Assembly: GCA_964016885.1 (NCBI GenBank)
Contig: OZ024742.1
Coordinates: 54,002,001-54,066,000, forward strand
From: Eledone cirrhosa
Taxonomy: Eukaryota
Direction of reading: 5' to 3'
DNA length: 64,000 nucleotides
Shown: positions 8,460 through 58,256 of the stretch, one piece after another
Position numbering within the stretch: position 1 is the stretch's first letter
Layout: every line of letters starts with the position of its first letter
Notes under the pieces: generated by a model
Told to the model about the DNA's origin: nothing
The model's input: only the letters and a program-made list of their open reading frames with translations
Databases searched by the model: none
Made by a program: the position numbers and the translations under genes

Positions 8460-11400
8460 TATTACATGATTATGTAAACTGATGAAGATGTAGCGTGTAC
8501 CATTGCAGTGCCCGTTTAGAGCATCCAGATTTTTCAGAAGCATGATGCAACTGCCTTTCTTCAGTTTAAGTATGTGTGTTGGGAAGCCTGATGGGGTAAG
8601 TTTGTTGATGAACACAATTTGATATTACAGTTCATTATCTACTGTATCAGAGCCTCTGTAGATTATTTCATGACCAGGGAACTTGTTTAACATGAACTCA
8701 TTCACCAATCTTGCTGCCTCATTTGTTGGAGTGATAATGGCTCTATTTGCAAGCCAAAGTGGGTTGTGTAGTTTCCTGGAAGATTTGTAAACACAAAATC
8801 ACACAGTCCAGACACATTACCATATTCCAGACAAAGTTCATTTCGCAGAAGAATTGTGTATGCACCTACAGTTGGAACAGTTGGAATGTTACCATTTCCC
8901 ACATCAAGAAGGTAGTTTGCAAACTGTCTTTCATCAGAGTCCTCTGAATTAATTAACCGTTGATTTGTTGTCTTCTCCATGGTTTCCACATAATCCCAGA
9001 GATAGGATCTCTTGATGGTTGCCTCAACTATTTGTGGTCTAGCACCATGACGTACAACTGGAAGAATTTGCTTCCAGTCACCAGATAGTAATACTGTTAG
9101 ACCACCATATGGCTTTTTGCAATCTCGAACATCTTTGAAGCTCCTGTCAAGGCATTCAAAGATATGCTTATGTCCCATCCATACCTATCTCATCAATGAT
9201 TAGCAGATCAACTTACTGCATAAGTTTACCTGTTTCATCCCTCTTTGTGAAGAAGCAAGTTGATTCAGCAGTCACATTGAGCGGAATCTTTCACTTAAAA
9301 TGAAGAATTCAACCTTTGTGAAACAAAGTGGCTGCTATTCCAGATATGGCAGTGGCAAGTGCAATTCTTTTTTTAGATCGGCGGTAATCCAATAGGATGC
9401 TTATGACATAGGTATTTCCTGTACCTGCACTTGCATTCAAGCAGAAAATTCTGCCTACATTTTCATTTACAGACGTGATTACTTTGTGAAAAATAACCAG
9501 TTGCTCAGGATTCAATGTTGGCAGAAGTTCATTTATGTTTGCTTGCAGTTGGTGTGTATTGAAATCAGTTTCTGTCATACGAACCCTGTTGATTTCTGGT
9601 ATGGCAACAATAGTTGGGTCTGACCGAGGAAGTCCATAGTTGGCATGAATGTCCAAGCCATCATGTTGAAGTCTTTGTTGGATCTTCTGTAGAACAATCT
9701 GCACGGTTTGCATGTACATGACTTGCTCATGACGTTCATGCATGATATCCTCTGCAAGACAATTCTTCCATTTCTCCCAGAACTGCGAAGGGTCATTTGG
9801 CATCCAGTACAATAAAATGGCACAGAAGATCTCTCGCAACTGAGGACCAAGTGTAATGGATGAGGCCTCTTCCATAGCTTTGTCTTTTTCTCCATCTTCA
9901 TCTAACAGACCAAGTTTCCTGCATGCTTCTTGGAATGTTGGAAATTGAACTCCTTCAATTGTCCACAAATCTTTGTATGAAGTTGACCCAGCCTTGTGAT
10001 GTAGGATCATTCTGAGTTAATATAATTCAGATTGATGTCTACTGAGAGGTACTGTTGGAATGCGCCCAAGAGATTCACTTTTAAATTGCTGATCACCATC
10101 CAGATGTCCCTTTTTTCATCTTTGCACCTTTTTGTTTGTCCAAGTGAAATATTTAGGAATATCAATATACAACATGTTTTGTGCCAGTGGGTCTTGAATA
10201 TTCAGTTGAAAATATTCCGTCAACTAGTCATTGGCTGTCCCCTAGAAACAATACTTTCTTTCTGCCCTCGCTCATATACGACCATAAATGGCAAGGCAAC
10301 TTTTCAACTGGCGGTTTACGTTGATGTAATGGAAATTTATAGATTCTCCAGAATGCTTCACTGGCTGAGATGTACCGTGCATTGATATAGGTCTCAATCT
10401 CATTTTGGGCATGGACACAATTTCCTTGATCATCCCAATAGTGAAAGGATCTTGTCTGATCCTTTCGTGATGTACTTATATAAGTACTTAACAGCCTTGA
10501 CACTGTGGAAAATCTCACAATTGATGTGGCACTGATATCTCAATGAGAGGAAAGGGTTGTATGGAACAATCCAACGATTATAAACAGTAAATTCTTGACC
10601 TTTATGTTGGATTGTATGGGTGTGACCACTATGATCTCTATCCCTTCTTCTATACTCCGGAAAGGAATTTTCTGAAACAAATGTGGTTTGTCCGAATGCC
10701 TTGGGATAACTTTTTGAGCAATGGCGTTGTTGTCCTAGCCCTTTCATACATGAGCACATCATATTAGCTTGTCCACATGGACCATGAATGTTGGATGCAG
10801 GATGTGATGATCTTATGCAGAATTGGATTGGTCTCTTTATCAGAAATCTCACAGCACACTACCTGATCAATGGCATCAGCAGTTTTGGTTTTGCTATCTT
10901 CAGCCATTATAAACAGAATATGAGCATGCGTGGGGCCTCGCTTCTGCCACTCTATTGTAGCAGAATGAGCCACAACTTTTCCTAGGACATTTTCTGTCAA
11001 TATGTCATCCACGAAGCTGTCATACTTGATCTTGAAGACTCTTGCACAAATATCAGGACGGTCTCTAGGTTCTTCACTAGGATGCAAACTATTTTTTATT
11101 TCATCCCAGTTAGGGTTAGTTGTTACCATGATCAAATAAGATCGCTTTCCCATGTGTCGAACCACAGCCATCGAATCCTGAAAGCAGTCACTGTAGAAGC
11201 GAGGGGAACAATAGATTGAAGGAGGAAGAACAATTCTCCGGCCTGCATTTACTGAATTTCCTTCAGCCACAGCATCATACAAACCCTTATACTTTTCAGC
11301 TCGTATCATGGTTTGATTGTTGCGGGCCCATTTGAAGCGACAATGTTCTATTTTTGCCTGGGCATCTACAGCATATTGCTGCATCAGCCGCCTGCTCTTC

Positions 11401-12490
11401 ATGATAATGTTACTGTCACCTTGCCTAACCTGAAACCGATAACAGTAGAAATCAGTGGGTGTGAGTGTGTGGTTGTTGTCAGTCCTTTTCAAACCAACCT
11501 GAAACCCATTATTCCCCCAAGTAAACAGTAGCACATAATGCAGAGGATCATAAGAATGGTGCAACTGATGAACCCTCTGAAGACCACCATCTCGTTTATG
11601 AATGATTACATCCAAATGACATAATGTTGTATCAGGTTGAATAACAGCAATCTCAGATGCCATGGGGAGATTATATGTGCGACAATGAAAATCAGTGGGT
11701 TTTACTTTGTCAGCATGTATGACAGTATTCACATTTTCAGAGACTGGCATTTCAATGACTGACTTGAAGCTTCTTATATGGGTGTTGGAGTAGTGCAAGT
11801 CTTCTTGCAGGTCCTGCAGGACAGCAGCATCTAAATTAGCATGATGCAAGAGATTCTGAAGCTCATGATCTGTATCATAGAAGTAGAGCTGCACAAAACT
11901 GGGTGAAGCATCACTTGGAAGTAGTGATCCAATAATATGACAAATCTTACCTTGGATCTTAAATGTGGGACTAAATCCTGGTGCTTTAATCTGTTTGCAA
12001 CCAATTTAAACTAAGGCAAGCACATTGTTATATGCCCGTATCTTATGGAGAAAAGAATTTCCTGCTTGAGTGATATCGAAATAGTTCAGTATATTTGGTG
12101 GAGGAGGAGGAAGTTAGGGGAGTTTCACTTTTCCCTGGAAGCAGCACAGAAATTTGGGTTTATGTGGCCAGTGATAAGCTTTGCAGTGCGGACAAACAGA
12201 GGCAAAGAGACTTCCTGCATTATGTTGTGGCATTATGGAAAGAACAGTTTGCTCTTGGAAAGGTTCATCTGTAGGATTCTTTGCCAGACCTTCAATTGAC
12301 CTGTTCCTTCCTCTCTGAACGTTTGGTGTATTTGTTGTAAGTTGTGTTAACTGAATTACATTTCTAAAAGTGTGTTGGAATGTTGTAAAGCGATTATTGT
12401 TTGATTGATTTGTCCTCATCTCTCTTTGTCGATGTGAATCTGCTGCTATGCGTTGGAATTTAGATGAGAAATGTTTTCTGCGTCCCATGT
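8460..12490 (-). pseudogene. Helitron RepHel (HUH Rep + PIF1-like helicase), frameshifted and 3'-truncated
   Basis: Rep motifs TIEWQKRGPTHAHIL and KYLYKYITKG; helicase motifs ASAGTGNT, GGLTVLLSGDWKQILPVV, PSGFPTHILKLKKGSCIMLLKNL..CNGTR. Split over ORFs 12114-12488, 10764-11894, 10430-10852, 10228-10518, 9309-10010, 8702-9178 and 8433-8615. Confidence 0.92.
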
Positions 12491-12732
12491 TCAGTTTCTG
12501 TCATGTATGTATAAATATATATTATCTCTACGGTGAAATCTTAGAAATAAATATATGTTAAATCAAAAAAATAAATATAAATATAAATATATCTATATCT
12601 ATATATATATATATATATAAGTTGAAAAAAATGAAAACGAAATTTCATTTCTCACTCTTAGTATGGCACTTACTTAAATGTAAGTATGTATGTATACGTA
12701 CATACATATATGTATACAGACGTACAGTAGTA

Positions 12733-12822
<90 letters not shown>

Positions 12823-13002
12823 TATACATACACATACACATATGCATACAGGTACACATACATATATGCACGCATCAGTTTAGCCGACGTTTATTATAAC
12901 GCGTGCTTTGTTCGTTTGTTTGTCAACAAATCGAACAGCCTGAATTTATGCCATACAGTGTTAAGGCAACCACGTCACCTTTTTGTTCAACACTGACACA
13001 GG

Positions 13003-13047
13003 AACGATGTACTAGTTTCAAGCTTGTTAGCTATCATCAGCACCGTT
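13003..13047 (-). ncRNA. Minimal type I hammerhead, array A unit 1
   Basis: AACGGTG-CTGATGA-T-AGCT-AACA-AGCT-T-GAAA-CTAG-TA-CATCGTT; predicted cut between 13010 and 13009. Confidence 0.85.
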
Positions 13048-13093
13048 TACCCATCTGCCAGATAGTTGAACGTTCGAAAGTATATACTTTCCT

Positions 13094-13129
13094 TATGAAA
13101 ATTAACGGCTGAGCAGCCTAATTTGCATA
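13094..13129. promoter_or_regulatory. Octamer-containing hairpin (ATTTGCAT at 13121-13128; also 13674, 14201, 14746)
   Basis: TATGAAAATTA-AC-GGCTG-AG-CAGCC-TAATTTGCATA; the octamer is a perfect consensus and is conserved in array B. Function is inferred. Confidence 0.45.
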
Positions 13130-13281
13130 TTGAGTGAGTTAAATCGGTCAGGCATACCGAGAACGATAAGTTGAAAAAAATGAAAACGAAATTTCATTTC
13201 TCACTCTTAGTATGGCACTTACTTAAATGTAAGTATGTATGTATACGTACATACATATATGTATACAGACGTACAGTAGCA

Positions 13282-13375
<94 letters not shown>

Positions 13376-13555
13376 TATACATACACATACACATATGCAT
13401 ACAGGTACACATACATATATGCACGCATCAGTTTAGCCGACGTTTATTATAACGCGTGCTTTGTTCGTTTGTTTGTCAACAAATCGAACAGCCTGAATTT
13501 ATGCCATACAGTGTTAAGGCAACCACGTCACCTTTTTGTTCAACACTGACACAGG

Positions 13556-13600
13556 AACGATGTACTAGTTTCAAGCTTGTTAGCTATCATCAGCACCGTT
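13556..13600 (-). ncRNA. Minimal type I hammerhead, array A unit 2
   Basis: Identical to 13003-13047. Confidence 0.85.
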
Positions 13601-13834
13601 TACCCATCTGCCAGATAGTTGAACGTTCGAAAGTATATACTTTCCTTATGAAAATTAACGGCTGAGCAGCCTAATTTGCATATTGAGTGAGTTAAATCGG
13701 TCAGGCATACCGAGAACGATAAGTTGAAAAAAATGAAAACGAAATTTCATTTCTCACTCTTAGTATGGCACTTACTTAAATGTAAGTATGTATGTATACG
13801 TACATACATATATGTATACAGACGTACAGTAGCA

Positions 13835-13902
<68 letters not shown>

Positions 13903-14082
13903 TATACATACACATACACATATGCATACAGGTACACATACATATATGCACGCATCAGTTTAGCCGACGTTTATTATAACGCGTGCTTTGTTCGTTTGTT
14001 TGTCAACAAATCGAACAGCCTGAATTTATGCCATACAGTGTTAAGGCAACCACGTCACCTTTTTGTTCAACACTGACACAGG

Positions 14083-14127
14083 AACGATGTACTAGTTTCA
14101 AGCTTGTTAGCTATCATCAGCACCGTT
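14083..14127 (-). ncRNA. Minimal type I hammerhead, array A unit 3
   Basis: Identical to 13003-13047. Confidence 0.85.
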
Positions 14128-14361
14128 TACCCATCTGCCAGATAGTTGAACGTTCGAAAGTATATACTTTCCTTATGAAAACTAACGGCTGAGCAGCCTA
14201 ATTTGCATATTGAGTGAGTTAAATCGGTCAGGCATACCGAGAACGATAAGTTGAAAAAAATGAAAACGAAATTTCATTTCTCACTCTTAGTATGGCACTT
14301 ACTTAAATGTAAGTATGTATGTATACGTACATACATATATGTATACAGACGTACAGTAGCA

Positions 14362-14447
<86 letters not shown>

Positions 14448-14627
14448 TATACATACACATACACATATGCATACAGGTACACATACATATATGCACGCAT
14501 CAGTTTAGCCGACGTTTATTATAACGCGTGCTTTGTTCGTTTGTTTGTCAACAAATCGAACAGCCTGAATTTATGTCATACAGTGTTAAGGCAACCACGT
14601 CACCTTTTTGTTCAACACTGACACAGG

Positions 14628-14672
14628 AACGATGTACTAGTTTCAAGCTTGTTAGCTATCATCAGCACCGTT
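14628..14672 (-). ncRNA. Minimal type I hammerhead, array A unit 4
   Basis: Identical to 13003-13047. Confidence 0.85.
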
Positions 14673-14818
14673 TACCCATCTGCCAGATAGTTGAACGTTC
14701 GAAAGTATATACTTTCCTTATGAAAATTAACGGCTGAGCAGCCTAATTTGCATATTGAGTGAGTTAAATCGGTCAGGCATACCGAGAACGATAAGTTGAG
14801 AAAAATGAAAACAAAATT

Positions 14819-14884
<66 letters not shown>

Positions 14885-34064: not shown

Positions 34065-34110
<46 letters not shown>

Positions 34111-34220
34111 GCTCTAACACACGCTCATACACAGGCATATACACATACACACATTCATTCACATACATACACATATGCGCACAAGTGCATACACAGATGT
34201 ACATACACACCTACGATTTT

Positions 34221-34279
34221 TTCATTCTGATGAATGAAAGTAAATATCGTTTGCTTTCAAGAAACCACTGGTAAATTAA
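34221..34279 (+). ncRNA. Type I hammerhead; damaged inverse copy at ~36150-36208
   Basis: TTCATT-CTGATGA-A-TGAAAGTAAA-TATCG-TTTGCTTTCA-A-GAAA-CCACTGG-TA-AATTAA. Confidence 0.7.
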
Positions 34280-34977
34280 ACAACTATCCTATGTTGTTCA
34301 TTACATAACTATATGTATATATATACATATATATACACACACATACATACACACACATATATACACAAACGTAAACTCACACATGTCCACACACACACAT
34401 ACGAACACATACGTACATAAACATTGCCTACACACGCACCCACACACACACACATATATATACATATATATATTTTTTATATAAGTATATATATATATAT
34501 ATAGTAATAATAATAATAATAGTAATAATAATAAATTTGAAGACTAAAATCCAAAGAGGGCTCGATAAGGATAAATATATATCAAATATATAAGAACCGT
34601 AGAACAAATATTTATATATATATAGATATATACACCCACACACACACACACACGACGACTATATATGTCGTCGTGTGTGTGGGTGCAGGTGCATGCATTC
34701 ACGGGCCTCTATATGTGTGTATATGTATTTGTGCATACATGTATGTGTTTATGGGAATGTGTGCGGATGTTTATATATGGACTATATATGTTTTTTTCAT
34801 TATTATTATTATTCATGTTGTATTATTTTATCACATACCCTTTATGCATACCCGTATATATGCGTATATGTACGTATGAGTCTGTGTACGTGTGCGTCTG
34901 TGTATGTGTGTGTATATATGTATACGTAGGTGCGTATGTGTATGTGTGTGTGTGTGTATATATGTATAATAGGGGGA

Positions 34978-35010
<33 letters not shown>

Positions 35011-35016
<6 letters not shown>

Positions 35017-35396
35017 TAATAAAATAATGAATAAACAAAGAAACAGTTCCTTATATTAAAAAAAATTCATCATTTTACGATCGTTTCTAGGATATATATG
35101 TGTTAGAGTTGGTATGCATATTCTATAGATCTATGTACAATATTTATACAAACTATCAGAGGGAATATACATACCTACACATATATATGCTGTCTTCAGA
35201 AATATTTCTGAAGACAGCATATATATGTGTAGGTATGTATATTCCCTCTGATAGTTTGTATAAATATTGTACATAGATCTATAGAATATGCATACCAACT
35301 CTAACACATATATATCCTAGAAACGATCGTAAAATGATGAATTTTTTTAAATATAAGGAACTGTTTCTTTGTTTATTCATTATTCTATTAATTTAT
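35011..35396. repeat. Spacer-less palindrome (~193-bp arms, centre 35203/35204) made of two back-to-back pLTR HHRs (35072-35203 -, 35204-35335 +)
   Basis: Centre CAGAAATATTTCTG; each arm reads ATTT-CTGAAGA-(105 nt)-GAAA-CGATCG-TA-AAAT. The right arm continues as pLTR sequence to ~35530. Confidence 0.92.
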
Positions 35397-35530
35397 CTTG
35401 ACTCTGTTTTCTGTTTATTTTTCACCGAAAGTAGTTTTTGAATGTATCTTCTCTTTTCATGATATCCGGATTACATTGAGTTCTTCATACGGATTGGACA
35501 CTACCGTACACTTTTGGTAGATTTATCTAC

Positions 35531-35566
<36 letters not shown>

Positions 35567-36319
35567 GTGCATGTACCACATTGTATATTATATTTCATTG
35601 TATATTTTTCTTATGTCATTATACTATTTTATGTTATTATACTGGTTTTTATTGCATAATGTATTATCAACTGTTCACTTACAGGTGTGTTTATATATGT
35701 ACATGTATATGTGGTGGCACTTCTGTGGGTAGGCAGATGTGCGTGCGTGTATGTGTATGCTTGCGGCAGCATGTATGCGCACGCATGTGTAGATGTATGT
35801 AGTTCGGCCTATGCGTGGGTATTTCTGTGTATATGTGTGGATATGCGTATGCGTGTTAAGTTGTCCTTTTTTTCTTTTTCTTTTTATTTTTCGTGTATAT
35901 ATCTATATATATACTTATATAAAAAAAATATATATGTGTATGTATATATATATGTGTGTGTGTAGGTGCGGGTGTAGGCAATGTTTATGTACGTATGTGT
36001 TCGTATGTGTGTGTGGACATGTGTGTGTGGACATGTGTGAGTTACGTTTGTGTATATATATGTGTGTATGTATGTGTGTCTGTGTGTGTATATATATATG
36101 TATATATATATATACATATAGTTATGTAATGAACAACATAGGATAGTTGTTTAATTTACCAGTTTTTACTTGAAAGCAAACGATATTTACTTTCATTCAT
36201 CAGAATGAAAAAATCCTAGGTGTGTATGTATATCTGTGTATGCACATGTGTGTATATGTGTATGAATGTGATTGTATGTGTGTATGTGTATATGCGTGTG
36301 TATGAGCGTGTGTATGAGC

Positions 36320-36386
<67 letters not shown>

Positions 36387-36431
36387 TAAACAAATAATGA
36401 ACAAACAATTCCTTATATTAAACAAAAAAAG

Positions 36432-36586
36432 TTCATTATTTAACGATCGTTTCTAGGATATATATGTGTTATAATTGGTATGCATATTCAACAGATCTAT
36501 GTACAAAATTATACAAAATTATACAAATTATCAAGATTAAATATACATACCAAACACATATATACGCCGTCTTCAGAAATAATGAA
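36432..36586 (-). ncRNA. Long-stem-II hammerhead (mirror of 47166-47320)
   Basis: Reverse complement of 47166-47320. Confidence 0.8.
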
Positions 36587-37404
36587 GTATATTTATTGAT
36601 AATAACAACAATTCAAAATTTCAGTTCAAAATTGACCAATGAAAACACAAAGGGTTAAATGCAGTTCGGTGTGTGTATATACATGTAAAACCCTTACACA
36701 TATTTTACAAAAATGTATGTATAATTTGTATACGCATACTAAAAGGATGGATGCAAATACGAAATTTCAAGGTTAATGTCTCTGTGAGCTTACAATGCGC
36801 AGATAAGATACTTATGAAATCAAGTATATAAATATATTTTTTCATACTCACACATATCAGTACAATCACACATACACGCGCGTATATGCATAAATATACA
36901 CATAACCACGAACATACAAACACACACACACCCCCACTCACATTTATATATGTGGATATAAAATCATAAGCACATGGATATTAATTCACTCACATAAAAC
37001 ACTGGCACACACATTTCTAGATCAAGATACAGAAATTAGGTGGGAGGGGGGGGAGGGGTCAGTATTCAACTGTCTGAGCAAACTGTCTAATATAAATGTA
37101 TCTATAAATTAAGAAAAAAAAAAAATAAAACAATAAAATATAATAAATATAATATAATATACATACACATACAGATATATACACATACATACATGTACTC
37201 ACACATAGAAATATTTACGCATACACACATACACACATACATATACAGTCATACACACACATACACTTACACGAACATACACATACACATATATAAAGAT
37301 ATATATATATACACACACACACACACACGCAACACATACACACATACACATATATATAAAAATAAATAATAAAGATATATACCTATATATATATACACAC
37401 ACAC

Positions 37405-37447
<43 letters not shown>

Positions 37448-37840
37448 CACACACATACATCTAAATATACATACACATACATACACACATACATGTACAT
37501 ACATGTACATACATATACGCACATCGATATACATATATATATATATACATATATATATATACACACACATAGACATGTAGATACATACACACATAACTTA
37601 CATACACACATATATATATACATGTATATTCATACATAGAATTAGATATATAATCATACATACTTATGCACTTACTTATATTCATATATACAAATACATA
37701 CGCATCTATATATGCATATATATATAAAAAAAACTACAACCTCACCTAACTCAGACATACAAATAAAAATAATAATAAAAAGGCATATGTATATACATAC
37801 ACACGCATTAATAGAGATATATATATAGAGACACATACAT

Positions 37841-37910
<70 letters not shown>

Positions 37911-37913
37911 ACT

Positions 37914-37955
<42 letters not shown>

Positions 37956-38023
37956 GATATCCACACACTCATACCACCATAAATACACATACAAACACCC
38001 ACATATATATATATATACACACG

Positions 38024-38057
<34 letters not shown>

Positions 38058-38179
38058 TAAAAAACAGACATGCACATATATATATACACATTAACTACAT
38101 TTATATATACACATATTATATACACGTACACAACCTCACTTATACATACATACACATAAGTTATATTATAATAATAAAG

Positions 38180-38234
<55 letters not shown>

Positions 38235-38330
38235 CATATACATACATACATACATACACATACATACATATAAACATATACATACATAAATACACATATA
38301 CTAATAAAGACATATATTCACACATAGACA

Positions 38331-38390
<60 letters not shown>

Positions 38391-39519
38391 CATATATACA
38401 CACACACATATACACAGACACATATACACTCTCACATATATATATGTGTGTGTGCGCACACACACATATGTACACACACACACACAAATACACATAAACA
38501 CATACATATGCATACATGCACACACACACACACATATATCACATAGATACGAAGATAAACATATAAATAGAGAGACATACATATATATACAACACACATA
38601 CACACACATACATACACACGCATATACATATACATATATATATACATATATATATTCCTATATATACATGCATACACATATATACACATATATACACATA
38701 CATACACATATACGTACACACATTCACATACACATACATATATAATGCATATATACACATATATACATACATATACACACTCTTATATACACACGCAATC
38801 TTACATTCATATTTGCATGCGCATATATGTATTTTTATATTTAGATATAAATACCCAAACCTATATAGACACCTACCTACATATATATTCATACATAGAC
38901 GCTTACAAATACAGATGATAATAGTATGGGGGAAAGGGGGGGTTTGGAGAAGGGGATCAAAGTAAATATATGTTTCAAGAAACATAGAAAATTTTCCGTA
39001 TTTTTATCCAATGTATGTTCTTACATATTTTCAGTGTTAGGAAATACGACAAACAAGAACCCAGGCAAAATCTATGCATCTCAAAATAAATAAGTATATC
39101 ATTAATCATATGTTAACTAAACCAAAGATAGTCAACATATTGATTTCTAAGGTGTAAATTAGTTAGGTTTATAATATTTGAAGCAGAATTTTGAAGTCAA
39201 ACAGTAGTAGATTATTAATTACAGTATAACTAAATTAAAGTTAATAACGTTATGGTATCAATATTAGGAAATGAATTTAGTGATAGGGAAAAAAATAAAA
39301 TAAAGTATTACATCGGTAGTAGAATATAAATTATATGTTAACTAAATTAAAAATTATATACTTATTTCAATAGTATATGTTAATTAGGTATACAATACAT
39401 AAAGCAGATACTGTATTTCATCAATAGCATAATATAATTATATGCAAATAGAAATCAAAACTAATACGCATACATATACATATACATACACATACACATA
39501 TACATACATATACACACAC

Positions 39520-39568
<49 letters not shown>

Positions 39569-40098
39569 TACATACATACACATACACATACACACACACA
39601 CATACACATACACATATACATATACATATCTTTTTCAAAAAAATTGCATAGAATATATTAACTAGGTATATATCCAAAACGCATCCCATTCTATGATTAC
39701 ATGACATTCTGTAATTCGTCTGTATAAGGATACTAATTTTAAGCAAATTAAAATTAAAATTAAAATTTTTAGGTTGATTAAAACTAAAACCAAATAATAA
39801 ATATATTTCTAAAATGTATATTAATTAGGTCTATAATACTAAAAATTATTTCTCTGTCATTGGATACACGATATTATTTTGTTATATTTTATCTGTAAAA
39901 GAGTTATAATAAAAGGTTTAAATAAATTAAAATTAATCTATAAATTAAATTACTAAGTATATATTAGTAATATTTAAAGGTTTTTCACAATTTATGATTA
40001 CATAATATTTTATATTCTCATCTGTAATAAAATATTAATTAAATTAAATTTATAGGTTAACTAACATTTAAATTAAATTAATTTCTAAAATAATGTTA

Positions 40099-42168
40099 TT
40101 AATTAGGTTTATAATATTTAAATGTTTTTTTTAGTTTATGATTACACGATATAATTAATTCCTGTCGTTTATTTAATAAGATATCCTTAGACTTCATTAT
40201 TTCAAATAGTTCTTGGGAACATAATCTACATTCATTTCTATTATTTTGATAAGGGGTGGCTCTTTTGAGCACACTCCAGGTCAAATCATATTTTATATTC
40301 TTATTTTTATAACTATTGATTTTTTCTGCTAGAGATGTTGTATTAGCCAGTGCTGCATTTTTAAAACTATGCTTGTGGGTATTAAACCTTGTCTTAAAAT
40401 TGTTAGAGGTAGCTCCTATATATGAGCAAATAGAATCTTTAGTTTTAACATTACATTTATAGACTATGTTGTTAACAAGACAATTCCCTTTTAATGGGCA
40501 GTTTGCTTTGTTTCTACAGTTACATCCTTTCGTTAATTCTGTATTTGAGGAGATATTATGGTTAATTTGATGTACTGGTGGTATACTTATGGTTTTCTTA
40601 CATTTATATGCATTATATGCACTTATATTTTGTTTTATGTTATTTGTTGTAGAGTATGAGAATTTAACTGTAGACCTATTTAAGATTTGATGGTATTTGT
40701 GGTTTGGCGGGAAGTTTTTCTCAAGGATATAAAAAAATTTTTTAGCAATATTATCCTTAACTTGTAAATTAAAAGGAGCATTATACCAAGTAACCCGTCT
40801 ATTACGGTTTCTATGTTGTTTATTATTTTTATTATTTTTATAGGTTGTATCATGATTTTTACTAGGAGGATTAATGTTAATGATCTCACCACAACTATTT
40901 TTAGTTATATTTGTAGATTTAGGTGTTTTATCTTTTTTATTAGGAGTTTTATTATTAATATTTATTATAGTTGTATGATGAGTAGTTTTTTGAGAGTTAT
41001 TATACTTTATATTAGAAGATTTAGTATTTTGGGGTATAGTGTGGGTGGCATTTAGGTGTGTACTTTTCATTTGGTGTTTGTTGGTAATATTATGTTGTAT
41101 GCTTTCAGTATTTTTAGTAGAAGGTATATACTCTAATCTATTTTTGTGGCCACTTCTATCTAGAGCTTCGTTATAGAAGGTCGCATTTTTATCAAATACA
41201 TCTTGGTTAGAAGAAAGGTTAGAAATTCTAAGTGATATATTATATGCAAGGTTTTTAAGGATAGATTTAGGGTGATTAGATTGTGAGTGTATGTAATGTA
41301 AGTTTTGGTTAGGTTTATGGTAAGGTTGGTAGATACCCGTAGCTAAATCTAAAGTTATATCTAGGAAATTTACTACTTTACTTGTTTTTTCAAAAGTAAT
41401 ATTAAGATTATAATAGTCTTTAAGGAAAGTTCTAATATGTTTTTTGTTTTTTTCGATTTCTGAAAGGCTAAGGTTGTTAGAAAGAAGAAGACAGTCATCA
41501 CGATATAAACCACCTTTGAGGTGGGGAAAAGAGGCATTTATGTTGAAAAGGAGAAAGAGGCCCACAAGATCAGTAATTTGGGCGGAATCGCTTGAACCCA
41601 TAGTAATATCAAAAAGATTACTGTATGTGTTTCTGGTCCAGTATTCATTCTGAAATTCAATAAGTGTTAGTCTAGCATGTGTAATAATGTTAATGTCATC
41701 CAAAGTTAAGTTAGATCTATTTTTAGCAAAAATCAATGCTTTGTTCAGGAGTATAGGTGATATAGAAGAATAGTAATTATCTATATCAAATTGTAGGAAA
41801 GAAGCAGAAGATTTACACCTAATATTTTTAAACCAGTTAATTACCTGGGAGGTGTTTTCCCAGAGTGGTAAAATAACGTGTTTTCTTATTTGTGGGATGA
41901 CTCTATCTAAAATTTTTTTGCTAATTATTCCAATATCTGATTTGGAGGGACATATAAGTCTAATAGAAGGATTTGAGTTAAAGTTAGATTTGTGATCTTT
42001 CAGGTTGAAGTGTGGTCTTTTCAATGCCAAAGGTTCAGTTCTATCTTCAATGTTTAGTTTTTTTACTATGTTGTGTGTTTTGTTGTTGATGTTGGTGAGT
42101 GACACATTATTAGATTTTTTATAATTTTTTCTGAGTTCTTTATATATGAACTCGTTATAATGTTCAAT
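40099..42168 (-). CDS. Penelope-like (Naiad-type) reverse transcriptase + C-terminal GIY-YIG endonuclease; open frame, 5'-truncated at the inversion junction
   Basis: FLQFDIDNYYSSI, FDITMGSSDSAQITDLVG, GLYRDD, VNFLDITL, SNHP, CNCRNKANCPLKGNC, IVYKC..SYIGAT..RFNTH, CRLC..N..CNH. The frame stays open upstream of the called GTG at 42105 (IEHYNEFIYKELRKNYKKS) up to the junction. Confidence 0.92.
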   Translation of the reverse strand: MEHYNEFIYKELRKNYKKSNNVSLTNINNKTHNIVKKLNIEDRTEPLALKRPHFNLKDHKSNFNSNPSIRLICPSKSDIGIISKKILDRVIPQIRKHVILPLWENTSQVINWFKNIRCKSSASFLQFDIDNYYSSISPILLNKALIFAKNRSNLTLDDINIITHARLTLIEFQNEYWTRNTYSNLFDITMGSSDSAQITDLVGLFLLFNINASFPHLKGGLYRDDCLLLSNNLSLSEIEKNKKHIRTFLKDYYNLNITFEKTSKVVNFLDITLDLATGIYQPYHKPNQNLHYIHSQSNHPKSILKNLAYNISLRISNLSSNQDVFDKNATFYNEALDRSGHKNRLEYIPSTKNTESIQHNITNKHQMKSTHLNATHTIPQNTKSSNIKYNNSQKTTHHTTIININNKTPNKKDKTPKSTNITKNSCGEIININPPSKNHDTTYKNNKNNKQHRNRNRRVTWYNAPFNLQVKDNIAKKFFYILEKNFPPNHKYHQILNRSTVKFSYSTTNNIKQNISAYNAYKCKKTISIPPVHQINHNISSNTELTKGCNCRNKANCPLKGNCLVNNIVYKCNVKTKDSICSYIGATSNNFKTRFNTHKHSFKNAALANTTSLAEKINSYKNKNIKYDLTWSVLKRATPYQNNRNECRLCSQELFEIMKSKDILLNKRQELIISCNHKLKKTFKYYKPN

Positions 42169-42191
42169 ATTCCGCCCAAATTACTGATCTT

Positions 42192-43658
42192 GTGGGCCTC
42201 TTTCTCCTTTTCAACATAAATGCCTCTTTTCCCCACCTCAAAGGTGGTTTATATCGTGATGACTGTCTTCTTCTTTCTAACAACCTTAGCCTTTCAGAAA
42301 TCGAAAAAAACAAAAAACATATTAGAACTTTCCTTAAAGACTATTATAATCTTAATATTACTTTTGAAAAAACAAGTAAAGTAGTAAATTTCCTAGATAT
42401 AACTTTAGATTTAGCTACGGGTATCTACCAACCTTACCATAAACCTAACCAAAACTTACATTACATACACTCACAATCTAATCACCCTAAATCTATCCTT
42501 AAAAACCTTGCATATAATATATCACTTAGAATTTCTAACCTTTCTTCTAACCAAGATGTATTTGATAAAAATGCGACCTTCTATAACGAAGCTCTAGATA
42601 GAAGTGGCCACAAAAATAGATTAGAGTATATACCTTCTACTAAAAATACTGAAAGCATACAACATAATATTACCAACAAACACCAAATGAAAAGTACACA
42701 CCTAAATGCCACCCACACTATACCCCAAAATACTAAATCTTCTAATATAAAGTATAATAACTCTCAAAAAACTACTCATCATACAACTATAATAAATATT
42801 AATAATAAAACTCCTAATAAAAAAGATAAAACACCTAAATCTACAAATATAACTAAAAATAGTTGTGGTGAGATCATTAACATTAATCCTCCTAGTAAAA
42901 ATCATGATACAACCTATAAAAATAATAAAAATAATAAACAACATAGAAACCGTAATAGACGGGTTACTTGGTATAATGCTCCTTTTAATTTACAAGTTAA
43001 GGATAATATTGCTAAAAAATTTTTTTATATCCTTGAGAAAAACTTCCCGCCAAACCACAAATACCATCAAATCTTAAATAGGTCTACAGTTAAATTCTCA
43101 TACTCTACAACAAATAACATAAAACAAAATATAAGTGCATATAATGCATATAAATGTAAGAAAACCATAAGTATACCACCAGTACATCAAATTAACCATA
43201 ATATCTCCTCAAATACAGAATTAACGAAAGGATGTAACTGTAGAAACAAAGCAAACTGCCCATTAAAAGGGAATTGTCTTGTTAACAACATAGTCTATAA
43301 ATGTAATGTTAAAACTAAAGATTCTATTTGCTCATATATAGGAGCTACCTCTAACAATTTTAAGACAAGGTTTAATACCCACAAGCATAGTTTTAAAAAT
43401 GCAGCACTGGCTAATACAACATCTCTAGCAGAAAAAATCAATAGTTATAAAAATAAGAATATAAAATATGATTTGACCTGGAGTGTGCTCAAAAGAGCCA
43501 CCCCTTATCAAAATAATAGAAATGAATGTAGATTATGTTCCCAAGAACTATTTGAAATAATGAAGTCTAAGGATATCTTATTAAATAAACGACAGGAATT
43601 AATTATATCGTGTAATCATAAACTAAAAAAAACATTTAAATATTATAAACCTAATTAA
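42192..43658 (+). CDS. Inverted duplicate of the same ORF, truncated within RT motif B
   Basis: After its called start codon, the 488-aa translation is identical to the C-terminal part of the 668-aa ORF. Confidence 0.88.
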   Translation: MGLFLLFNINASFPHLKGGLYRDDCLLLSNNLSLSEIEKNKKHIRTFLKDYYNLNITFEKTSKVVNFLDITLDLATGIYQPYHKPNQNLHYIHSQSNHPKSILKNLAYNISLRISNLSSNQDVFDKNATFYNEALDRSGHKNRLEYIPSTKNTESIQHNITNKHQMKSTHLNATHTIPQNTKSSNIKYNNSQKTTHHTTIININNKTPNKKDKTPKSTNITKNSCGEIININPPSKNHDTTYKNNKNNKQHRNRNRRVTWYNAPFNLQVKDNIAKKFFYILEKNFPPNHKYHQILNRSTVKFSYSTTNNIKQNISAYNAYKCKKTISIPPVHQINHNISSNTELTKGCNCRNKANCPLKGNCLVNNIVYKCNVKTKDSICSYIGATSNNFKTRFNTHKHSFKNAALANTTSLAEKINSYKNKNIKYDLTWSVLKRATPYQNNRNECRLCSQELFEIMKSKDILLNKRQELIISCNHKLKKTFKYYKPN

Positions 43659-44188
43659 TAACATTATTTTAGAAATTAATTTAATTTAAATGTTAGTTAA
43701 CCTATAAATTTAATTTAATTAATATTTTATTACAGATGAGAATATAAAATATTATGTAATCATAAATTGTGAAAAACCTTTAAATATTACTAATATATAC
43801 TTAGTAATTTAATTTATAGATTAATTTTAATTTATTTAAACCTTTTATTATAACTCTTTTACAGATAAAATATAACAAAATAATATCGTGTATCCAATGA
43901 CAGAGAAATAATTTTTAGTATTATAGACCTAATTAATATACATTTTAGAAATATATTTATTATTTGGTTTTAGTTTTAATCAACCTAAAAATTTTAATTT
44001 TAATTTTAATTTGCTTAAAATTAGTATCCTTATACAGACGAATTACAGAATGTCATGTAATCATAGAATGGGATGCGTTTTGGATATATACCTAGTTAAT
44101 ATATTCTATGCAATTTTTTTGAAAAAGATATGTATATGTATATGTGTATGTGTATGTGTGTGTGTGTATGTGTATGTGTATGTATGTA

Positions 44189-44237
<49 letters not shown>

Positions 44238-45366
44238 GTGTGTGTATATGTATGTATATGTGTATGTGTATGTATATGTATATGTATGCGTATTAGTTTT
44301 GATTTCTATTTGCATATAATTATATTATGCTATTGATGAAATACAGTATCTGCTTTATGTATTGTATACCTAATTAACATATACTATTGAAATAAGTATA
44401 TAATTTTTAATTTAGTTAACATATAATTTATATTCTACTACCGATGTAATACTTTATTTTATTTTTTTCCCTATCACTAAATTCATTTCCTAATATTGAT
44501 ACCATAACGTTATTAACTTTAATTTAGTTATACTGTAATTAATAATCTACTACTGTTTGACTTCAAAATTCTGCTTCAAATATTATAAACCTAACTAATT
44601 TACACCTTAGAAATCAATATGTTGACTATCTTTGGTTTAGTTAACATATGATTAATGATATACTTATTTATTTTGAGATGCATAGATTTTGCCTGGGTTC
44701 TTGTTTGTCGTATTTCCTAACACTGAAAATATGTAAGAACATACATTGGATAAAAATACGGAAAATTTTCTATGTTTCTTGAAACATATATTTACTTTGA
44801 TCCCCTTCTCCAAACCCCCCCTTTCCCCCATACTATTATCATCTGTATTTGTAAGCGTCTATGTATGAATATATATGTAGGTAGGTGTCTATATAGGTTT
44901 GGGTATTTATATCTAAATATAAAAATACATATATGCGCATGCAAATATGAATGTAAGATTGCGTGTGTATATAAGAGTGTGTATATGTATGTATATATGT
45001 GTATATATGCATTATATATGTATGTGTATGTGAATGTGTGTACGTATATGTGTATGTATGTGTATATATGTGTATATATGTGTATGCATGTATATATAGG
45101 AATATATATATGTATATATATATGTATATGTATATGCGTGTGTATGTATGTGTGTGTATGTGTGTTGTATATATATGTATGTCTCTCTATTTATATGTTT
45201 ATCTTCGTATCTATGTGATATATGTGTGTGTGTGTGTGCATGTATGCATATGTATGTGTTTATGTGTATTTGTGTGTGTGTGTGTACATATGTGTGTGTG
45301 CGCACACACACATATATATATGTGAGTGTGTATATGTGTCTGTGTATATGTGTGTGTGTATATATG

Positions 45367-45420
<54 letters not shown>

Positions 45421-45516
45421 TGTCTATGTGTGAATATATGTCTTTATTAGTATATGTGTATTTATGTATGTATATGTTTATATGTATGTATGTGTATGTA
45501 TGTATGTATGTATATG

Positions 45517-45569
<53 letters not shown>

Positions 45570-45691
45570 CTTTATTATTATAATATAACTTATGTGTATG
45601 TATGTATAAGTGAGGTTGTGTACGTGTATATAATATGTGTATATATAAATGTAGTTAATGTGTATATATATATGTGCATGTCTGTTTTTTA

Positions 45692-45725
<34 letters not shown>

Positions 45726-45793
45726 CGTGTGTATATATATATATATGTGGGTGTTTGTATGTGTATTTATGGTGGTATGAGTGTGTGGATATC

Positions 45794-45835
<42 letters not shown>

Positions 45836-45838
45836 AGT

Positions 45839-45910
<72 letters not shown>

Positions 45911-46303
45911 ATGTATGTGTCTCTATATATATATCTCTATTAATACGTGTGTATGTATATACATATGCCTTTTTATTATTATTTTTATTTGTATGTCTGA
46001 GTTAGGTGAGGTTGTAGTTTTTTTTATATATATATGCATATATAGATGCGTATGTATTTGTATATATGAGTATAAGTAAGTGCATAAGTATGTATGATTA
46101 TATATCTAATTCTATGTATGAATATACATGTATATATATATGTGTGTATGTAAGTTATGTGTGTATGTATCTACATGTCTATGTGTGTGTATATATATAT
46201 ATGTATATATATATATATGTATATCGATGTGCGTATATGTATGTACATGTATGTACATGTATGTGTGTATGTATGTGTATGTATATTTAGATGTATGTGT
46301 GTG

Positions 46304-46346
<43 letters not shown>

Positions 46347-47165
46347 GTGTGTGTGTATATATATATAGGTATATATCTTTATTATTTATTTTTATATATA
46401 TGTGTATGTGTGTATGTGTTGCGTGTGTGTGTGTGTGTGTATATATATATATCTTTATATATGTGTATGTGTATGTTCGTGTAAGTGTATGTGTGTGTAT
46501 GACTGTATATGTATGTGTGTATGTGTGTATGCGTAAATATTTCTATGTGTGAGTACATGTATGTATGTGTATATATCTGTATGTGTATGTATATTATATT
46601 ATATTTATTATATTTTATTGTTTTATTTTTTTATTTTTCTTAATTTATAGATACATTTATATTAGACAGTTTGCTCAGACAGTTGAATACTGACCCCTCC
46701 CCCCCCTCCCACCTAATTTCTGTATCTTGATCTAGAAATGTGTGTGCCAGTGTTTTATGTGAGTGAATTAATATCCATGTGCTTATGATTTTATATCCAC
46801 ATATATAAATGTGAGTGGGGGTGTGTGTGTGTTTGTATGTTCGTGGTTATGTGTATATTTATGCATATACGCGCGTGTATGTGTGATTGTACTGATATGT
46901 GTGAGTATGAAAAAATATATTTATATACTTGATTTCATAAGTATCTTATCTGCGCATTGTAAGCTCACAGAGACATTAACCTTGAAATTTCGTATTTGCA
47001 TCCATCCTTTTAGTATGCGTATACAAATTATACATACATTTTTGTAAAATATGTGTAAGGGTTTTACATGTATATACACACACCGAACTGCATTTAACCC
47101 TTTGTGTTTTCATTGGTCAATTTTGAACTGAAATTTTGAATTGTTGTTATTATCAATAAATATAC

Positions 47166-47320
47166 TTCATTATTTCTGAAGACGGCGTATATATGTGTTT
47201 GGTATGTATATTTAATCTTGATAATTTGTATAATTTTGTATAATTTTGTACATAGATCTGTTGAATATGCATACCAATTATAACACATATATATCCTAGA
47301 AACGATCGTTAAATAATGAA
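47166..47320 (+). ncRNA. Type I hammerhead with ~116-nt stem II in the pLTR of the Naiad element
   Basis: TTCATTATTT-CTGAAGA-[..TATATATGTGTT-TGGTATGTATATT...AATATGCATACCA..AACACATATATA..]-GAAA-CGATCG-TT-AAATAATGAA; perfect 10-bp stem I and palindromic stem III. Confidence 0.82.
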
Positions 47321-48206
47321 CTTTTTTTGTTTAATATAAGGAATTGTTTGTTCATTATTTGTTTAATATTTTATCTTGACTCTGTATACCGTTTATCTTT
47401 CACCGAAAGTCGTTTTTCATTACATCTCTTCTTTCCATGATATCCGGAATACATTGAGTTCTTCATACGGATTGGACACTACCGTAAACTCTTGGTAGAT
47501 TTATCTACATATATATATATATATATAAAAATGAATAGAAGGTTGGCCGAATGTGTGCGTGCGCGCATGTGTATGTATATATGTGTACGTTTGATTTTGA
47601 CATGCTTACCCAATTGATACAGAACAGTCAGAAGGCTCGTGGCAGCATGTATCAACAAGTGTGTGTGACTGGGTCCATGGGAGAGGGGGAGAGAGGGTTT
47701 GTGAGTATATATACTGCAATGTATGTATGTGGCGGTGTGGGTGTCTGTGCATGTAGACGTATGAGTGTGAGTGCATAGATAGGTGTATGTCTGAGTATAT
47801 ATATGTGTGTGTTACTATGTGATTATGTTAGTATGTGTGGGTGCTTACTCTGAAGTGTGAGCAGACGTGTGAGGTACTGAACCCAGCATGACTCCATTGA
47901 AATATGTCGGACGGAAAATAGTTGATGAACCGTGTGGCAGCAGGAACTGACCAGAACTTGTTATGACGTGAAGTAAAAACAGCCAATGGCATGACAAGAG
48001 TGGAAAGAAGGTATTTTGAGGGGTTGATTTTATAACACCCCAGTGATAAAATTTGCTCCGGACATAACAGACGTGTCTGAAAGAACCCACAGAAGTAGAA
48101 TCATCCAGATCCATACAAGGACCATGACTCGAACTACATGCCGGCGAATCATTTGTACCACGAAATAAACTAAGCCCAGATGCATCACTGATTTTTCGTT
48201 TTCTTG

Positions 48207-57060: not shown

Positions 57061-57194
57061 TATCGCAGGTGGGCGCACCGCGAGGGGCTGCTATCTTTTG
57101 TTTATAACACTTTATTCTTATAAAACTCGGGGTAAGTGCATCCGTTGAATTCTAGCCCCGTGTTTGGTCATTCGATATGTTTGTTTGTATTTTT

Positions 57195-58251
57195 GTACTC
57201 ACGCTCTATGCAAATTAGTAGTGGGCAGACTAATTTGCATAGAGCGTGAGTACGTACCGGTTCAACGGAGACGATAAAAACAAATAACGAAACGAAATTA
57301 AATTTCGTTTCGTTTGTAACTCACTTTTGTATGACTGACGCTTAAACAATTAAGTTAAAAATGTACATCCACATATGTATACTGAAATACTAGTATGCAT
57401 ATGAATACACACACGTATACATATGTAGATGTACCGAGTTTTTCACTGGTCACTTTACTGTGAGTGTCCAGCTATTCTGTATGTAAACACACAGACAAAC
57501 CGGTTTTTAGAGTCATACTGGTTTTTGAGGAAACACCTTTCCTCTATTCTGCAGAAAGCCAGACAAGGAACATTGAACTAGTTTCGATGTTGTTACATCT
57601 CATCAGCAATATTTACCTATCTTCCGGCCTCTCTAGAGAATCGTAAAAGCACATATCGTTATATGCTTTTTCTATGAAAATTAGTAGTGGGCAGACTAAT
57701 TTGCATAGAGCGTGAGTACGTACCGGTTCAACGGAGACGATAAAAACAAATAACGAAACGAAATTAAATTTCGTTTCGTTTGTAACTCACTTTTGTATGA
57801 CTGACGCTTAAACAATTAAGTTAAAAATGTACATCCACATATGTATACTGAAATACTAGTATGCATATGAATACACACACGTATACATATGTAGATGTAC
57901 CGAGTTTTTCACTGGTCACTTTACTGTGAGTGTCCAGCTATTCTGTATGTAAACACACAGACAAACCGGTTTTTAGAGTCATACTGGTTTTTGAGGAAAC
58001 ACCTTTCCTCTATTCTCTAGAAAGCCAGACAAGGAACTGGCTTTCTGGAGAATAGAGGAAAGGTGTTTCCTCAAAAACCAGTATGACTCTAAAAACCGGT
58101 TTGTCTGTGTGTTTACATACAGAATAGCTGGACACTCACAGTAAAGTGACCAGTGAAAAACTCGGTACATCTACATATGTATACGTGTGTGTATTCATAT
58201 GCATACTAGTATTTCAGTATACATATGTGGATGTACATTTTTAACTTAATT

Positions 58252-58256
<5 letters not shown>
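57195..58256 (-). repeat. Tandem repeat, 466-bp period (~1.8 units), with fold-backs at both ends (candidate retrozyme, family B)
   Basis: 57212-57677 repeats at 57678-58037; 57809-58028 is inverted as 58037-58256; 57195-57219 mirrors 57229-57253. Octamer at 57233 and 57699. Confidence 0.9.
57569..57613 (-). ncRNA. Minimal type I hammerhead, array B
   Basis: AATATTG-CTGATGA-GATGT-AACA-ACATC-GAAA-CTAG-TT-CAATGTT; predicted cut between 57576 and 57575. Confidence 0.87.

What the first reader, a model, noticed from the sequence alone, without database searches (positions are those of the whole stretch)
13094..13129. Conserved octamer hairpin upstream of each array ribozyme: possible internal snRNA-type promoter
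Seen: a perfect ATGCAAAT (minus strand) lies ~75 nt (array A) or ~85 nt (array B, 57699-57706) upstream of the HHR. It pairs with a near-octamer ATGAAAAT, forming a hairpin whose inner sequence differs between the families. Established: the octamer is the POU/Oct site of snRNA distal elements, and newt satellite 2, an HHR satellite, is transcribed from an snRNA-type promoter containing an octamer. Inference: the unit may carry its own promoter, which would parallel the amphibian case in a distant lineage; alternatively the hairpin acts at the RNA level.
Basis: partly seen in the sequence, partly recalled or inferred. Interest (0 to 1): 0.72.

Follow-up and report, generated by a model that had tools for sequence, protein, structure and literature searches.

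The report
Ribozyme repeat with compact built-in promoter
Two related families of a very abundant animal repeat with a hammerhead-ribozyme motif both keep a perfect octamer DNA motif exactly 42 bases ahead of a TATA-like box, which likely forms a compact built-in promoter of the small-nuclear-RNA type in a class of mobile elements thought to lack promoters, though transcription is untested.

Summary
All 5 array hammerheads have a perfect octamer 80 nt (A) or 92 nt (B) upstream of the catalytic core, paired with a near-octamer. The arrays are two homologous families of non-LTR retrozymes (about 549 and 466 nt) with Penelope-type insertion marks.

New here: the octamer starts exactly 42 nt before a TATA-like hexamer in both families, despite an indel between them; in B it is the only TATA-like site in the unit. 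That puts a predicted start just ahead of the ribozyme and the octamer against the PSE slot. In same-species DNA, no variant of 4% or more is listed in the octamer arm, while the partner arm varies in about 54% and keeps one mismatch.

Against: each conservation statistic is weak (p 0.10–0.55), the whole unit is strongly folded RNA, host snRNA promoters could not be compared, and expression is untested.

Best reading: a compact SNAPc/POU-type promoter whose hairpin is a secondary RNA-level feature (0.55). Precedents are newt satellite 2 and schistosome repeats. Verdict: new variant of a known kind.

The parts
12620..14819 (-). Array A: 4 units (549, 553, 527, 545 nt; lengths differ only in an internal (TA)n) plus a 26-nt terminal repeat (14794-14819, 2 mismatches), (TA)n on both sides
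   Evidence: 3 point differences among the 4 copies outside the microsatellite
13094..13129 (-). Octamer hairpin / 34-bp dyad, copy 1 of array A (others 13647-13682, 14174-14209, 14719-14754)
13121..13128 (-). Perfect octamer; no variant of 4% or more listed in same-species DNA contigs
13095..13102 (+). Near-octamer partner arm; changes at 13098 and 13100 in about 54% of summed depth move the single mismatch
13081..13086 (-). TATA-like hexamer 42 nt after the first octamer base, inside its own small hairpin
13050..13061 (-). Predicted transcription start zone (25-36 nt after the TATA-like box), just before hammerhead stem I; inferred
   Evidence: geometry; spacing from PMC5460494 and recalled U6 spacing
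13001..13051 (-). Type I hammerhead motif of family A: CUGAUGA core, U-U at base of stem II, minimal palindromic stem III, predicted cut 13010/13009
   Evidence: Rfam HH9 18.5 bits, E 0.063, below gathering score
13174..13186 (-). T4+T7 run after a hairpin near the unit end (first T4 or longer, about 426 nt after the predicted start); array A's left end lies 5 nt beyond the equivalent run
57188..58256 (.). Array B: 1.8 units of 466 nt, then an inverted 220-nt arm ending in (TA)n
57672..57708 (-). Octamer hairpin of family B (octamer 57699-57706, partner 57674-57681)
57659..57664 (-). TATA-like hexamer of B, 42 nt after the first octamer base; only TATA-like site of the unit on either strand
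57567..57617 (-). Type I hammerhead motif of family B (GUU cleavage triplet); compensatory stem II variant 57587/57598 in other copies
   Evidence: Rfam HH9 32.9 bits, E 3.6e-6, below gathering score 52
57188..57253 (.). Left end of array B: the octamer hairpin made perfect and extended to a 25-bp stem (snap-back product)
58029..58045 (.). Inversion junction of array B, 4-5 nt short of the position equivalent to the hammerhead cut (58041/58042)
40099..43658 (.). Penelope-like element (RT plus C-terminal GIY-YIG with a Cys linker) in inverted arrangement; candidate class of mobiliser, not part of the arrays
   Evidence: Pfam and PDB sequence searches gave no significant hit

Best explanation
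The octamer hairpin is a conserved 34-bp dyad, 42 bases ahead of a TATA-like box, in two related hammerhead-repeat (retrozyme) families, and it likely serves as the upstream half of a compact snRNA-type promoter that would start RNA just before the ribozyme. Inferred mechanism: a POU protein binds the perfect octamer and helps SNAPc load on the adjacent slot (the hairpin's inside), and TBP binds the TATA-like box. Transcripts start 0-10 nt (A) or about 10-20 nt (B) before hammerhead stem I. Those that read on through the next unit (Pol II from the same promoter, as human H1 does, or leaky Pol III) are cut by two ribozymes into unit-length RNA that carries the promoter at its 3' end and probably circularises. 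A Penelope-type RT/endonuclease then copies it into (TA)n as tandem and inverted arrays, so each new array of two or more units has a promoter in front of a ribozyme. The partner arm would exist because every part of this RNA is under pressure to pair, not because a second perfect octamer is needed. Shown: sequence, spacing, variant pattern, insertion anatomy. Inferred: binding, start site, polymerase, cleavage, circle, mobiliser.
For: (1) Octamer-to-TATA distance is 42 nt in both families although the hairpin differs by 1 nt, while TATA-to-ribozyme differs by 12 nt. Spacing is reported as critical in PSE/TATA promoters (PMC7949045, passages). (2) In B this is the only TATA-like site in 466 nt on either strand. 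(3) In the predicted S. japonicum U6 promoter the PSE begins 35 nt before the TATA (PMC5460494, passage), so this octamer would abut that slot. (4) Arm asymmetry: among 4689 contigs of same-species DNA run X1, none of 23 listed variant sites falls in 13101-13130, but two partner-arm sites vary in about 54%. The octamer C that is unpaired in the window's hairpins is kept in A and B. 3 of 3 listed X5 contigs and 1 of 1 listed X4 contig that cover the octamer keep it. (5) The 12-nt octamer block and the 11-nt partner block are the two longest identity runs between A and B, and the 36-column window is the best in the alignment (30/36, against 27/36 for the hammerhead window tested). (6) No T4 run on the RNA strand for 426 (A) or 276 (B) nt after the predicted start; array ends lie just beyond T-runs (a further end at 57274 in 6 X1 contigs). 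(7) 0 of 10 other hammerhead-like cores checked in the window have a perfect octamer within 140 nt. (8) Precedent: newt satellite 2 (snRNA promoter, Pol II) and schistosome repeats (Pol III).
Against: Every statistic is weak on its own: longest run p 0.33, best window p 0.15; octamer invariance p 0.55, 30-nt block p 0.10, lack of T4 p 0.28 and 0.16. A and B are 71% identical over ungapped columns (305 of 430), so shared spacing may be plain descent. The unit folds far better than shuffles (z -7.1, -11.7) and better in sense than antisense (-154 vs -113; -153 vs -122 kcal/mol), so RNA selection alone could keep both arms. The TATA-like boxes also sit in hairpins and the sequence is TA-rich. No PSE could be identified. 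The octamer would be closer to the start than any human case listed. A Pol III transcript would stop at T5-T7 runs before making the unit-length RNA that the arrays require. 4 of the 10 control cores had a one-mismatch octamer 83-94 nt upstream (2.8 expected anywhere in those windows). The variant table for B was cut (98 rows hidden), so invariance was checked for A only.
Confidence: 0.55

Rival explanations
1. RNA- or cDNA-level element: the hairpin is a structural or recognition signal of the retrozyme RNA (folding of the circle, binding or pausing of the Penelope RT). The octamer match is coincidental and transcription is read-through from host promoters.
For: Whole-unit folding z -7.1 and -11.7, sense better than antisense. 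Octamer stem pairs at probability 0.77-1.0 apart from the mismatch. Both partner-arm forms keep all but one pair. The hairpin demonstrably formed in single-stranded nucleic acid once, at the left end of B. A review states that retrozymes seem to lack promoters (PMC7761336, passage).
Against: No change on both sides of the outer stem between A and B. Only the partner arm varies. The unpaired C of the octamer is kept. The fixed 42-nt distance to a TATA-like box is unexplained.
Confidence: 0.25
2. Classical Pol II snRNA layout as reported for newt satellite 2: the octamer is a distal enhancer about 200-230 nt upstream of a TATA-less start that lies downstream of the ribozyme, with a PSE in the moderately conserved block just 3' of the hammerhead.
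For: Most human octamers lie at about -200 to -240. Pol II would read through the T-runs and give multimers. The block after the ribozyme aligns between A and B.
Against: No conserved block there stands out. A has a TATA-like site at offset 230 but B has none. The conserved TATA at offset 42 is unexplained.
Confidence: 0.1
3. Neutral relic: the block is inherited from a common ancestor, the partner arm arose by snap-back copying, and neither arm has a function now.
For: All conservation tests are non-significant. Snap-back at this hairpin is seen at 57188-57253. Young copies are nearly identical for historical reasons.
Against: It is the best-conserved window between families that differ by long indels elsewhere, and summed contig depth over it is among the highest in unit A (a weak proxy).
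Confidence: 0.1

Closest known systems
Metazoan non-LTR retrozymes (Cervera and de la Pena 2020, PMC7229834: passages and Discussion read, supplement not readable; Li et al. 2026, 10.64898/2026.07.22.740005: parts 1-2 of 5 and passages)
   Same: Non-coding tandem units within the reported size range, one type I hammerhead per unit, low GC, strong fold, U-U at the stem II base as in axolotl HHR_Amex2, co-occurrence with Penelope-like elements.
   Different: Described as seeming to lack promoters (PMC7761336, passage). 'Octamer' occurs 0 times in the main text of the two retrozyme papers searched. No cephalopod case in PMC7229834's main text.
Newt satellite 2 (Coats, Zhang and Epstein 1994; not held, seen only as cited in PMC2220036 and PMC6765202)
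   Same: Hammerhead tandem repeat with an internal snRNA-type promoter.
   Different: Reported as Pol II. Recalled as octamer plus PSE in standard snRNA organisation. Here the octamer is proximal, sits in a dyad and is followed by a TATA-like box.
Schistosoma Sm-alpha/Sj-alpha hammerhead repeats (as summarised in PMC6765202, passages)
   Same: Promoter lies at the 3' end of the cleaved monomer, so only tandem copies can propagate.
   Different: Pol III promoter of SINE type (tRNA-like boxes, recalled), not an octamer/TATA block.
Human H1 (RPPH1) type 3 promoter (PMC7949045 passages; PMC3499247 passages and Fig. S9)
   Same: [quoted passage not shown]
   Different: Octamer at -90/-97 with a Staf site between it and the PSE. 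Here there is no room for such a site, and the promoter is carried inside the transcribed unit.
Neptune/Nematis-type Penelope-like elements (PMC8557442, section 6 and passages)
   Same: (TA)n targets, inverted 5'-truncated copies, short terminal tail, hammerheads, promoter carried in the repeat that drives the downstream copy (PMC6765202).
   Different: The arrays code no protein and show no similarity, beyond microsatellite, to the rest of the window among the 20 best hits printed; the window's other hammerhead-like cores lack the octamer hairpin.

Membership tests
Non-LTR retrozyme | Tandem non-coding units, each with a type I hammerhead | tested here: met
   4 of 4 units in A; 1 full hammerhead in 1.8 units of B. 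The only long frames over array A run through microsatellite.
Non-LTR retrozyme | At least two consecutive complete hammerheads (active-element criterion of Li et al.) | tested here: met
   Met by array A; not met by this copy of B.
Non-LTR retrozyme | Hammerhead fold with conserved core and stems | tested here: met
   Stems I-III pair; compensatory stem II pair in B copies; Rfam HH9 hits below gathering score.
Non-LTR retrozyme | Self-cleavage and circular RNA in vivo | not testable with these tools
   Needs bench work or raw RNA reads.
Penelope-mobilised element | Microsatellite target, inverted 5'-truncated arm, terminal tail | tested here: met
   (TA)n at 3 of 4 array ends, inverted arm 58037-58256, 26-nt terminal repeat in A; features as in PMC8557442.
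Penelope-mobilised element | Homology to a pLTR of an autonomous partner | tested here: inconclusive
   Only microsatellite-like hits among the 20 best printed against the rest of the window; genome not held.
Type 3 Pol III (U6/H1-like) promoter | TATA box at a fixed distance from the upstream element | tested here: met
   TATA-like hexamer at offset 42 in both families; sequence match only.
Type 3 Pol III (U6/H1-like) promoter | PSE matching the host's snRNA genes, 15-19 bp before the TATA box | not testable with these tools
   No host snRNA gene in the window, no genome, no cephalopod PSE in the papers found.
Type 3 Pol III (U6/H1-like) promoter | Oligo(T) terminator downstream and none before | tested here: inconclusive
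   First T4 or longer at +426 and +276; p 0.28 and 0.16.
snRNA distal sequence element | Octamer about 170-250 bp (at least 90 bp) upstream of the start | tested here: not met
   About -67 to -78 from the TATA-predicted start; no shared TATA about 200 nt downstream on either strand.
snRNA distal sequence element | POU and SNAPc occupancy, needed for transcription | not testable with these tools
   Needs EMSA, CUT&Tag or reporter assays.

The most novel reading that the evidence does not exclude
The 34-bp dyad is a dual-coded module. In DNA it is a fused octamer-plus-PSE promoter tighter than human H1, letting a huge retrozyme family recruit the host's snRNA machinery with both polymerases. In RNA or cDNA it is a hairpin held at exactly one mismatch, because a perfect version makes the Penelope RT snap back and end the insertion, as at the left end of array B.
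Probability: 0.2. Interest if true: 0.75.

Novelty: new variant of a known kind. Interest (0 to 1): 0.5.

Why it matters
How animal retrozymes reach high, tissue-wide expression is open; a 2020 review says they seem to have no promoters and rely on read-through (PMC7761336). A defined octamer/TATA block with a predicted start makes this testable with a handful of mutants that separate DNA recognition from RNA folding. If true, it extends the newt and schistosome cases to a further lineage with a different layout, implies very many POU/SNAPc sites competing with host snRNA genes, and offers a roughly 75-bp promoter for small-RNA expression in an animal group for which my paper searches found none described. 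The same idea was reached by several earlier agents of this scan; that is repetition, not independent support.

Tried and rejected
Host genome: not held, so no comparison with host snRNA promoters and no genome-wide alignment.

Rfam at gathering score: 0 matches in the window.

The core-only pattern gave 16 viral and 54 metagenome loci; 1 of 70 had a weak fold at another site, without octamer. All treated as chance.

Sequencing runs: no RNA holder listed. Raw-read run X23 laid 0 reads (no test). X6 has no cover of array B. X7 (same organism code as X1) covers B but not the unique flank; its kind is unknown, so it says nothing on expression.

Octamer as a distal element for a start about 200 nt away on either strand: no TATA-like site shared by both families.

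The 7 octamers elsewhere in the window, 6 of them in the large inverted PLE-containing block: those read are not in this hairpin context.

Bacterial promoter scan: not applicable to this question.

Earlier-finding look-ups by sequence, near and relatives: empty.

Papers: no paper held all of hammerhead/satellite 2/octamer/promoter; octopus plus hammerhead ribozyme plus repeat gave 3 listings, none by title on this element; the newt paper is not held; the supplement of PMC7229834, which may hold retrozyme sequences with or without octamers, could not be read; PSE alignments of PMC3499247 are in an unreadable format. Absence from print is claimed only for these searches.

Full report
Observation. 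The finding's coordinates hold an 11-bp imperfect inverted repeat: a near-octamer at 13095-13102 and a perfect octamer at 13121-13128. It recurs in all 4 units of array A and in array B (57699-57706, 57233-57240). All 5 complete hammerheads in the arrays have the octamer 88 nt (A) or 100 nt (B) before the first base of the core. A perfect octamer arises in 6.0% and 2.0% of 3000 shuffled units, and an octamer with an inverted near-copy in about 0.1%. These are post hoc figures and A and B are one evolutionary event. The inside of the hairpin is only partly different between families: its 5' half is shared.

The elements. Array A (12620-14819) is 4 near-identical units plus a 26-nt terminal repeat, in (TA)n on both sides; outside the internal microsatellite the copies differ at 3 positions. 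Array B (57188-58256) is 1.8 units of 466 nt followed by an inverted 220-nt arm that ends in (TA)n. The inversion point lies 4-5 nt short of the position equivalent to the hammerhead cut. The hammerheads are type I with a minimal palindromic stem III. Rfam HH9 scores them below its gathering score (32.9 and 18.5 bits). Other copies of B carry a double change that keeps a stem II pair (57587/57598). The families align end to end at 305 of 430 ungapped columns. Microsatellite targets, inverted truncated arms and short tails are Penelope-like marks (PMC8557442, section 6). The window also holds a 693-aa ORF with RT and C-terminal GIY-YIG look-alikes (Pfam and PDB gave nothing significant). So these are non-LTR retrozymes (PMC7229834; 10.64898/2026.07.22.740005). 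Run X1 behaves as DNA of the same species: 1333 nt of unique flank match exactly at depth 8.6, against summed contig depths of up to 2 million (A) and 0.57 million (B). The tool warns that this is no copy number; it shows only great abundance. Earlier notes of the scan call the host a cephalopod or octopus; I did not verify this.

Evidence for a promoter. The first octamer base lies 42 nt before a TATA-like hexamer in both families, although the hairpin differs by one base and the stretch from TATA to ribozyme differs by 12. In B it is the only TATA-like site in the unit on either strand. A start 25-36 nt after the box (36 from the predicted S. japonicum U6 layout, PMC5460494; the lower figure recalled) falls 0-10 nt before stem I in A. 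It places the octamer at about -67 to -78, against the slot where a PSE would be (PSE-TATA spacer 15-19 bp, PMC7949045). Among 4689 X1 contigs, 23 variant sites were listed for unit A; none lies in 13101-13130, whereas two partner-arm sites change in about 54% of depth and occur on one contig in X5, shifting the single mismatch rather than removing it. X5 carries changes at 13052 and 13054 that are rare in X1, so its copies look like another subfamily, and its 3 listed contigs over the octamer keep it. The octamer block (12 nt) and partner block (11 nt) are the longest identity runs between A and B. The RNA strand has no T4 run for 426 and 276 nt after the predicted start, and array ends lie just past T-runs. 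None of 10 hand-picked other hammerhead-like cores in the window has a perfect octamer within 140 nt. In human data the ATGAAAAT form is listed once, at a site not occupied by POU2F1 (PMC3499247 Fig. S9 and its legend), which fits a partner arm that is not a binding site.

Evidence against. No test reaches significance: p 0.33 for the longest run, 0.15 for the best window, 0.55 for octamer invariance, 0.10 for the 30-nt block, 0.28 and 0.16 for T-run absence. The unit folds strongly as RNA (z -7.1 and -11.7; sense far better than antisense), and the TATA-like boxes lie in hairpins too, so RNA selection is real and could keep both arms. The left end of B is a perfected, extended copy of this hairpin (25-bp stem), showing that it folds in single-stranded nucleic acid; a repair or RT snap-back explains it (inference). 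The octamer would be closer to the start than any human case listed (nearest -90/-97), so it fails the distal-element test. A pure Pol III transcript would end at the T-runs and lack the promoter, so propagation needs Pol II or read-through; H1 shows that dual use is possible. The variant table for B was cut, contigs drop rare variants, and the host's snRNA promoters could not be examined. Four of the 10 control cores have a one-mismatch octamer at 83-94 nt, two of them from one family (2.8 expected).

Mechanism. Most likely (0.55): a compact POU/SNAPc/TBP promoter inside each unit starts RNA just before the ribozyme. Read-through transcripts are cut into monomers that carry the promoter at their 3' end and probably circularise. 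A Penelope-type enzyme copies them into (TA)n as arrays, which restores a promoter in front of a ribozyme. The hairpin is then the RNA-level cover of a DNA signal. Rivals: RNA-only element (0.25), classical Pol II layout with a distal octamer (0.10), neutral relic (0.10).

Comparison and novelty. The element class is known, and internal promoters are reported for newt satellite 2 (Pol II, snRNA type) and schistosome repeats (Pol III), seen here second-hand (PMC2220036, PMC6765202). A review says retrozymes seem to lack promoters (PMC7761336). The proximal octamer dyad with fixed TATA spacing was not found in the paper searches listed under Tried and rejected. Several earlier agents of this scan report a U6-like promoter in these families, some saying it resembles the host's own. 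I could check the octamer-TATA spacing in this window but not the host match. Verdict: real feature, new variant of a known kind, interest 0.5.

Noticed in passing
window 36378-47374: An 11-kb inverted structure (arms up to 3250 nt, 100% complementary) around a 693-aa Penelope-like ORF with a Cys linker before GIY-YIG; a hammerhead-like motif with a very long stem II lies at about 47170-47315 (+), read by eye.
   Followed up: partly
window 34068-36362: A second inverted structure with a perfect fold-back at 35203/35204 beside a CTGAAGA hammerhead-like core related to the one at 47176; probably a non-coding Penelope-type remnant.
   Followed up: no
window 8086(+), 20898(-), 26930(-), 27913(+), 33780(+), 48407(+), 52451(+), 59068(-): Further hammerhead-like cores; 20898 and 33780 follow GIY-YIG-like ORF remnants; 59068 sits in a local fold-back.
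   Followed up: partly
window 8700-12500 (-): Broken Helitron (Pfam Helitron_like_N, E 4.8e-47); array A lies in the (TA)n just upstream of it.
   Followed up: partly
window 57274: Six X1 contigs join (TA)n to family B at this point, homologous to array A's left end: a second fixed end just past a T-run.
   Followed up: partly
window 12860-13280: Parts of unit A are held by runs of 16 organism codes; X4 has it at low depth only, X5 has a distinct variant form. Related species versus cross-sample contamination is unresolved.
   Followed up: partly
window 56506-56600 and 54400-54520: The first is a short repeat at high depth in X1, X5 and X7; the second resembles a repeat recalled from octopus genomes (recall only).
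   Followed up: no
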